This document shows, in pieces, positions 21,481 through 21,833 of a DNA stretch of 64,000 nucleotides. A model generated the notes under the pieces. It made no database searches and was not told where the DNA came from. It saw only the letters and a list, made by a program, of their open reading frames with translations. The stretch is taken from NCBI GenBank assembly GCA_964016885.1, contig OZ024747.1, positions 53,940,001 to 54,004,000 of the forward strand. The letters are read 5' to 3'. This DNA is from Eledone cirrhosa. Its lineage: Eukaryota. The translations under genes were made by a program, and so were the position numbers. Every line of letters starts with the position of its first letter. Within the stretch, counting starts at the first letter, position 1.

Positions 21481-21833
21481 GAAACACACAGATACATGCG
21501 GACACACACATATATACATGAATGCATCCGCACCCAACTGCGAGTTAAGGGTGCCAACTTCACCGATGTTGCTCAATGAATGACTGGGACAGACCAATTC
21601 AGTTTGAACCAGACTGAACCAGTATCAGAGTTAAAAATACATTATGAAGAGAGAAGAAACATTTAGATATAATTAGTAATAAAATGTATCATACCTAAAC
21701 TGCTCCTAAATTCCTCGACTACGTAGTTTCGTGGCATAAACAAAAACAATATATCAAAGATATAGAGTCCTTGCGAGGTCTGCCAACTTATCAAGAGGAT
21801 ACCTCATTTTACTAGTCTCAAGAACGCGTCTAC
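21473..21833 (-). mobile_element. Solo partial copy of the 591-bp HHR repeat (family E); U3-A8 HHR at 21712-21799
   Basis: Near-identical to 48174-48535; flanked by (TA)n. Confidence 0.85.

What the first reader, a model, noticed from the sequence alone, without database searches (positions are those of the whole stretch)
21712..21799. Compensated U3-A8 catalytic core (UUGAUAA) in family E
Seen: all three copies (21712, 48413, 49004) read UUGAUAA instead of CUGAUGA. The context is otherwise sound: 5-bp stem I, closed stem II, GAAA, 8-nt palindrome, GUC site. Established: C3-G8 is a tertiary Watson-Crick pair and U3-A8 preserves it. Inference: the double change points to selection for activity, and standard CUGANGA searches would miss it. 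The three copies are near-identical, so they are not independent evidence.
Basis: partly seen in the sequence, partly recalled or inferred. Interest (0 to 1): 0.75.

Follow-up and report, generated by a model that had tools for sequence, protein, structure and literature searches.

The report
Retrozyme hammerhead with known U3-A8 swap
These three motifs are copies of a predicted self-cutting RNA (hammerhead ribozyme) carried by a 591-base jumping repeat with thousands of copies in this animal genome; the swapped U-A core pair is real and likely still works, but it is an already described variant.

Summary
Confirmed: three minus-strand type I hammerhead motifs read U3-A8. They belong to a young, non-coding 591-nt tandem element (6,389 exact motif matches genome-wide) with Penelope-like insertion marks: two fixed 3' ends in (TA)n and head-to-head arms. 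U3-A8 is a known natural covariation (PMC3088659), already reported in Penelope hammerheads (PMC4209133). No C3-G8 relative was found, so 3-8 covariation was not seen in this lineage; single changes at 3 and 8 are rare (10 and 12 copies), mostly post-insertion. Support for function is indirect but goes beyond the three copies: sister subfamilies 75-83% identical keep the core, stem I covaries U-A/U-G/C-G, and the unascertained 3' half carries no inherited variant (0/25 vs 92/540, p=0.01). One array shares a genome-unique, A>G-rich haplotype across all 7 covering units in both arms, as expected from one RNA circle. 5' ends show no clear pile-up at the cut site; cleavage is untested. The scan noted U3-A8 hammerheads and two-armed arrays before on other DNA, this genome included. 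Verdict: new member of a known kind.

The parts
21712..21799 (-). Type I hammerhead copy 1: stem I 21799-21795 with 21716-21712; core 21794-21788 (U3 = 21794, A8 = 21789); 10-nt palindrome 21727-21718; predicted cut after C17 (21717)
21472..21835 (-). Single-armed, 5'-truncated insertion of the family (unit positions 473-591 then 1-245), 3' end abutting (TA)n at 21447-21477
48413..48500 (-). Hammerhead copy 2 (U3 = 48495, A8 = 48490; C17 = 48418)
49004..49091 (-). Hammerhead copy 3 (U3 = 49086, A8 = 49081; C17 = 49009), 591 bases from copy 2
48418..49008 (-). One full 591-nt unit from cut site to cut site (predicted monomer/circle); no ORF of 120 aa or more
48173..49241 (-). Long arm of a two-armed insertion (unit 359-591, 1-591, 1-245), 3' end at unit position 245 in (TA)n 48135-48178
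49240..49317 (+). Short inverted arm (unit 3-80), 3' end at unit position 80 followed by (TA)n
46261..48135 (.). Neighbour, not part of the family: two-armed Penelope-like element fragment (GIY-YIG, Neptune-like by recalled motifs) with canonical C3-G8-type hammerhead remnants; the family array sits in its flanking (TA)n

Best explanation
The motif is a type I hammerhead fold with the known U3-A8 core pair inside a 591-nt non-coding tandem retroelement, and it likely cuts the element's multimeric transcript into unit-length RNAs that would be circularised and copied into (TA)n tracts by a Penelope-type reverse transcriptase/endonuclease. Shown: anatomy, copy number, tandem units, two fixed 3' ends (unit positions 80 and 245), head-to-head arms, conservation of the ribozyme across subfamilies. 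Inferred: cleavage after GUC, best as a double hammerhead through the 10-nt palindrome; ligation to a circle; A-to-I editing of the RNA; rolling reverse transcription from both sides of the DNA break. The autonomous partner was not identified.
For: Core and junction intact. U3-A8 is reported as natural and as active in vitro (PMC3088659 passages, citing its ref 32) and occurs in PLE hammerheads (PMC4209133). Double-hammerhead fold of the window's tandem pair is 13 kcal/mol better than two monomer folds and within 4 of the MFE (-203.7, -190.6, -207.7). Purifying selection: 0 of 25 positions in the unascertained 3' half carry a variant shared by 2 or more of 51 loci, versus 92 of 540 elsewhere, Fisher p=0.011; 1 of 478 25-nt windows elsewhere is as clean. 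Sister subfamilies at 74.5% and 83% unit identity keep the core. In 20 chosen haplotypes 98.7% of 556 cells pair, stem I pair 1.2-2.2 goes U-A 15, U-G 2, C-G 3, distal stem II varies mostly by wobble. PLE footprint: 3' ends at 74-81 or 245-253 in 143 of 151 ends, flanked by (TA)n; 42 of 44 two-armed loci have one end of each kind, like the two internal RT start sites and AT-rich targets of PMC11167929. RNA monomer template: units within an array differ by 1.4 bases, between arrays by 11.7; inherited variants are A>G-biased on the RNA strand (0.174 per A vs 0.057 T>C per T, p=0.001) while singletons are not; a marker with three A>G changes occurs only in locus L101, 7 of 7 matches, 4 in one arm and 3 in the other. 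The unit folds well as a circle (z=-6.9 against 30 shuffles).
Against: No cleavage assay and no RNA reads. 5' ends do not pile up around the cut site: 38 in a 5-nt window there versus 39 at a control site; 12 of 34 independent ends start exactly at the cut site (binomial p=0.09), against 3 of 38 at the control, which is confounded by microhomology with (TA)n. Arrays read through several hammerheads. Five insertions carry a core variant in every hammerhead copy (A8U, A8G, A9U, two A9G), so templates with a damaged core were inserted at least once. In vitro, hammerhead-dead mutants of the anole PLE still inserted (PMC11167929), and metazoan PLE hammerheads cleave poorly (PMC4209133). The active monomer fold is not the MFE (1.1-1.6 kcal/mol above it). 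The circle test rests on one locus, and a parent missing from the assembly would explain it too. Absence of inherited A>G at hammerhead A sites is only borderline (0/10 vs 31/119, p=0.057). No C3-G8 ancestor found.
Confidence: 0.78

Rival explanations
1. The fold is kept for another reason (recognition by the Penelope protein, or very slow protein-assisted cleavage), and insertions are copied from uncut multimeric transcripts of existing arrays.
For: Hammerhead-dead mutants did not affect insertion in vitro and no reads ended at the cut site for the anole PLE (PMC11167929). No window-level excess of 5' ends at the cut site. Other invariant runs exist in the unit, near the two 3' ends, so constraint alone does not prove catalysis. 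Core-variant templates were inserted.
Against: A haplotype unique to one locus is shared by all 7 covering units in both arms, which a linear multimer would give only with an equally long parent array. Constraint covers exactly the catalytic residues, cut site and dimer palindrome.
Confidence: 0.14
2. U3-A8 is a founder accident in a dead or dispensable ribozyme, uniform only because the family expanded recently from one master.
For: Copies are about 98-100% identical and single changes at 3 and 8 occur without partner changes. No C3-G8 relative shows the path.
Against: Subfamilies 17-25% diverged keep every core base, and stem I changes on both sides. Many lineage-level variants exist elsewhere in the unit but none in the 3' half of the motif.
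Confidence: 0.05
3. The arrays are a DNA satellite amplified by unequal crossover or DNA rolling circles, with no RNA step.
For: Head-to-tail units that are homogeneous within arrays.
Against: Fixed 3' ends, variable 5' ends, (TA)n targets, paired 80/245 ends in 42 of 44 two-armed loci, dispersed short arrays, strand-biased A>G in inherited variants.
Confidence: 0.03

Closest known systems
U3-A8 minimal hammerheads of Cercyon Penelope-like elements in Schistosoma mansoni (Cervera and de la Pena 2014, PMC4209133; parts 1-2 of 4 read)
   Same: Same core covariation, type I topology, 5-bp stem I with no defined loop I, enlarged helix II, palindromic helix III predicted to act as a dimer, missed by a C3-G8 descriptor. 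The paper's D. virilis variant also has a bulge in helix II and a palindromic helix III.
   Different: Here the motif sits in every unit of a non-coding 591-nt tandem element rather than in mostly single, heterogeneous PLE ends; helix II has a roughly 40-nt distal extension; copies are near-identical.
Natural U3-A8 hammerheads (Perreault et al. 2011, PMC3088659; passages read)
   Same: States that C3 and G8 covary to U3 and A8 in several natural examples and that such ribozymes had been shown active in vitro.
   Different: I did not see rate data; the primary paper (Przybilski and Hammann 2007) was not held, and its title says tolerance depends on surrounding elements.
Metazoan non-LTR retrozymes (Cervera and de la Pena 2020, PMC7229834, part 2 of 6 read; Li, Clavereau and Pollet 2026, 10.64898/2026.07.22.740005, part 1 of 5 and passages read)
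   Same: Non-coding tandem repeats with one type I hammerhead per unit, low GC, proposed circular RNA intermediate and PLE origin; unit length lies within the 51-972 bp range of the preprint.
   Different: Longer than the 150-450 bp typical in the 2020 paper; U3-A8 core; no loop I-loop II contact identified; RNA expression and circles not shown here.
Penelope-like element insertions (Craig et al. 2021, PMC8557442, passages; Frangieh et al. 2024, PMC11167929, parts 1-2 of 4)
   Same: 5' truncation, partial tandems, inverted 5' copy, (TA)n or AT-rich targets, two fixed internal RT start sites giving a 'tail' at one end.
   Different: No ORF; the two ends are about 165 nt apart rather than 30-40; multi-unit arrays in both arms; partner element not identified.

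Membership tests
Type I hammerhead ribozyme | Core N3-U4-G5-A6-N7-N8-A9, G12-A13-A14-A15.1, U16.1-H17 with a Watson-Crick 3-8 pair | tested here: met
   U3-A8, all other core bases canonical, GUC site
Type I hammerhead ribozyme | Three helices around the core, open stem I, G10.1-C11.1 | tested here: met
   98.7% of cells paired in 20 haplotypes, one pair with changes on both sides
Type I hammerhead ribozyme | Strict consensus C3-G8 | tested here: not met
   0 C3-G8 among about 6,401 matches; published variant U3-A8 instead
Type I hammerhead ribozyme | Site-specific self-cleavage after H17 | not testable with these tools
   No assay; genomic proxy (5' ends at the cut site) inconclusive
Type I hammerhead ribozyme | Loop I-loop II tertiary contact of fast natural hammerheads | not tested
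   Stem I is open-ended; no contact was searched for
Dimer-type (PLE/newt-like) hammerhead | Weak helix III with a palindrome that pairs between two copies | tested here: met
   10-nt palindrome, no hairpin alone, duplex -12.9 kcal/mol; double form 13 kcal/mol better than two monomers
Non-LTR retrozyme | Non-coding tandem units, one type I hammerhead per unit | tested here: met
   591-nt units, arrays up to 6 full units in the sample; no ORF of 120 aa or more
Non-LTR retrozyme | Expressed as linear and circular monomer RNA | not testable with these tools
   No RNA holder listed; only indirect genomic signs
Non-autonomous Penelope-like element | Fixed 3' ends with a tail, 5' truncation, inverted 5' copy, (TA)n target | tested here: met
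Non-autonomous Penelope-like element | Sequence shared with the end of an autonomous PLE | tested here: inconclusive
   No similarity beyond microsatellite-like stretches to 30 loci of one Neptune-like family; other PLE families of the genome not examined

The most novel reading that the evidence does not exclude
The family is a natural in vivo mutational scan of a U3-A8 hammerhead in a circular-RNA replicon: each insertion is a snapshot of one A-to-I-edited RNA circle read several times round by two Penelope reverse transcriptases starting at two fixed sites 165 nt apart, and core-damaged circles can insert once but never found a lineage, which would show that U3-A8 cleavage is required for replication in the animal.
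Probability: 0.5. Interest if true: 0.55.

Novelty: new member of a known kind. Interest (0 to 1): 0.3.

Why it matters
The swap itself is known, so the finding as written is ordinary. What it adds: a very large, recently active family whose only hammerhead has the U3-A8 core, with genomic signs of selection and of a circular RNA template. It gives a clean construct for testing U3-A8 activity in a dimer-type ribozyme and the proposed but unproven circle-to-genome step of animal retrozymes, and it shows that CUGANGA-only searches undercount hammerheads in this genome by thousands.

Tried and rejected
Rfam scan of the window: no hit at gathering thresholds. Frequency test at positions 3 and 8: uninformative for covariation; freed position 9 rather than 8 by my numbering slip, corrected. 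Search for a C3-G8 version in the same stem context: 3 hits, none a relative by inspection; this covers only that 17-nt context. One search was meant to exclude the family, but the exclusion was mis-coded; it served as a count (8,101 matches to the 3' half) and led to a third subfamily. 5' ends at the cut site: inconclusive; before counting I dropped 1 local duplication and 3 repeats of one junction from the 38 rows, and 1 deletion artefact from the 39 rows; this classification was by eye. Autonomous partner: the Neptune-like family beside the window array shares no sequence with the unit. Sequencing runs: no RNA holder listed; contigs of three runs cannot show ends, strand or circularity, and the 620-621-nt contigs in X1 and X5 can be collapsed tandems. 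Przybilski and Hammann 2007 and Nelson and Uhlenbeck 2008 were not held, so U3-A8 rates were not seen. Paper searches: U3-A8/C3-G8, 2 papers; 0 papers; no paper on cephalopod retrozymes among 2 listed; subscription journals are largely missing. Supplements of PMC4209133 and PMC7229834 were not opened and those of the bioRxiv preprint are closed; they may list related motifs.

Full report
Observation. The three motifs are on the minus strand at 21712-21799, 48413-48500 and 49004-49091. Each has a 5-bp stem I, the core U3 U4 G5 A6 U7 A8 A9, stem II closed by G10.1-C11.1, GAAA, a palindrome and a GUC site. The palindrome is 10 nt because A15.1 and U16.1 are part of it; it forms no hairpin alone and a -12.9 kcal/mol duplex with itself. 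Stem II is 2 bp, a one-base bulge, 4 bp, an internal loop and a distal 8 + 6 bp extension. Copies 2 and 3 are identical and copy 1 differs at one base. The heptamer alone is at chance level (29 versus 25.4 expected), but the whole motif is not: my descriptor scan gave 9 hits in the window, these three and six canonical ones. Rfam found none of them.

The element. Copies 2 and 3 are 591 bases apart and delimit one unit with no ORF of 120 aa or more. A 26-nt motif matches 6,389 times in the 3.0-Gb genome, reversed control 0; the 3' half matches 8,101 times, sister subfamilies included. I fetched all 51 clusters formed by the first 100 listed matches on contig C1, plus 9 loci from the DNA search. 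Insertions are short tandem arrays with variable 5' ends. Of 151 3' ends, 76 fall at unit positions 74-81 and 67 at 245-253, abutting (TA)n. Of 44 two-armed loci, 42 have one outer end of each kind; 49 loci had a single end and 4 were unclassified. The window's array at 48173-49317 has this form. These are the marks described for Penelope-like elements: 5' truncation, partial tandems, an inverted 5' copy, a tail at one end, (TA)n targets (PMC8557442, passages), and two internal reverse-transcription start sites with AT-rich targets (PMC11167929, parts 1-2 of 4). Tandem non-coding units with one type I hammerhead each define non-LTR retrozymes (PMC7229834 part 2 of 6; preprint 10.64898/2026.07.22.740005, part 1 of 5 and passages).

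Positions 3 and 8. Among the 6,389 matches with A8 fixed, 10 differ at position 3 (5 C, 3 G, 2 A) and 24 at position 9. Freeing position 8 gives 12 more (7 G, 4 T, 1 C), all with U3. So there is no C3-G8 copy and the singles are rare. In the 6 position-3 loci with more than one hammerhead the change is confined to one copy, as for post-insertion mutation. A search for C3-G8 in the same stem context gave 3 unrelated hits. The double change is thus inferred from the canonical consensus, not observed in this lineage.

Selection on the motif. The 5' half was used to pick the loci, so I tested only the 3' half: 0 of 25 positions carry a variant shared by two or more of the 51 loci, against 92 of 540 elsewhere (Fisher p=0.011); 1 of 478 25-nt windows elsewhere is as clean. 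A diverged copy beside L070 led to a sister subfamily, and led to further ones. Their units are 74.5% and 83% identical to the window's, yet the core, the proximal stem II, the palindrome and the cut site are the same apart from scattered single-copy changes. In an alignment of 20 haplotypes that I chose from 68 (frequent ones and subfamily representatives), 98.7% of 556 cells pair; one stem I pair goes U-A 15, U-G 2, C-G 3; eight distal stem II pairs vary on one side only, keeping the pair; slid controls pair 34-59%. The choice of rows favours intact copies, and related sequences can beat the shuffle control without structure, so this supports the fold but is not a probability.

Signs of an RNA monomer template. 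Full units differ by 1.4 bases within arrays (43 pairs) and 11.7 between arrays (1,849 pairs). Following a lead from an earlier AI note on another family (e1-8803865), I tested strand bias: variants shared by two or more loci are A>G-rich on the RNA strand (23 of 132 A versus 12 T>C of 212 T, p=0.001), singletons are not (8 versus 19); G>A is also common among shared variants, so polarity is not always certain. A-to-I editing is the likely cause (inference). Locus L101 has ten differences from the majority shared by all covering units in both arms, six or seven of them A>G. A marker holding three of them matches only L101: 7 of 7 matches, 4 in one arm and 3 in the other. One edited unit-length circle read repeatedly from both sides explains this; so would a parent array missing from the assembly. 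It is one locus. The unit folds as a circle at -171 kcal/mol, z=-6.9 against 30 shuffles, and the tandem's double-hammerhead form (-203.7) beats two monomer forms (-190.6) and nears the MFE (-207.7).

Results against. 5' ends in a 5-nt window at the cut site number 38, at a control site 39. Exactly at the cut site start 12 of 34 independent ends (p=0.09 against an expected 0.24), versus 3 of 38 at the control, where microhomology with (TA)n shifts apparent starts: inconclusive. Five insertions carry a core variant in every hammerhead (L060 A8G, L233 A8U, L230 A9U, L231 and L232 A9G), so damaged templates can insert once; none of the variants reaches more than a handful of copies genome-wide. 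Editing after ligation, or cutting by a wild-type partner in a dimer, could explain them (inference). Inherited A>G is absent from hammerhead A sites, but only at p=0.057. Published data also warn: PLE hammerheads cleave weakly (PMC4209133), and hammerhead-dead mutants of the anole element still inserted in vitro. The Neptune-like element next to the window array (46261-48135; clade named from recalled motifs) shares no sequence with the unit, so the partner is unknown.

What is known. Perreault et al. 2011 report natural U3-A8 covariation and cite in vitro activity (PMC3088659, passages). Cervera and de la Pena 2014 report U3-A8 in Cercyon PLE hammerheads of S. mansoni, missed by their first descriptor, with about 1,300 hits (PMC4209133, parts 1-2 of 4). 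A second, unrelated U3-A8 minimal motif occurs in held loci of this genome. The scan's earlier AI notes list U3-A8 hammerheads in this and other genomes and two-armed arrays in other families here; these are unchecked leads, not support. A look-up by this unit's sequence found nothing. A paper search for hammerheads or retrozymes in cephalopods listed no dedicated paper; the animal group is my guess from genome size and repeat content.

Verdict. New member of a known kind; interest 0.3.

Noticed in passing
window 46261-48135: Two-armed Penelope-like element fragment with GIY-YIG region and its own canonical-core hammerhead remnants (47882 +, 46465 -); a protein query from a relative gave 29,495 first-look candidates in the genome, some open frames over 1,000 aa.
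   Followed up: partly
window 11638-11708, 49465-49529, 49648-49712, 50618-50672, 50786-50840, 57177-57242: Six canonical C3-G8 hammerhead-like motifs of other families, two pairs in inverted arrangement.
   Followed up: no
L053:748 and L065:3936: A second, unrelated minimal hammerhead family with a U3-A8 core and a palindromic helix III.
   Followed up: no
window 48418-49008 (-), unit positions about 17-80: The stretch after the cut site resembles a 5' splice site followed by branch-point and pyrimidine-rich motifs (consensus recalled) and is conserved across subfamilies; PLEs are known to carry introns near the hammerhead.
   Followed up: no
L126-L150, L186, L190: Sister subfamilies of 580-597 nt; one has a 7-bp stem I, so the window's family has lost two base pairs of stem I or the sister gained them.
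   Followed up: partly
window 21826-21882: 27-nt tandem duplication at the 5' junction of copy 1's insertion, like a restart during cDNA joining.
   Followed up: no
window 36696-38664, 20905-21294, 44275-44778: Non-LTR retrotransposon fragments (endonuclease/reverse-transcriptase-like ORFs by eye).
   Followed up: no
window 3924-10018: 6-kb (CAC/CAA)-rich higher-order microsatellite with extreme strand skew.
   Followed up: no
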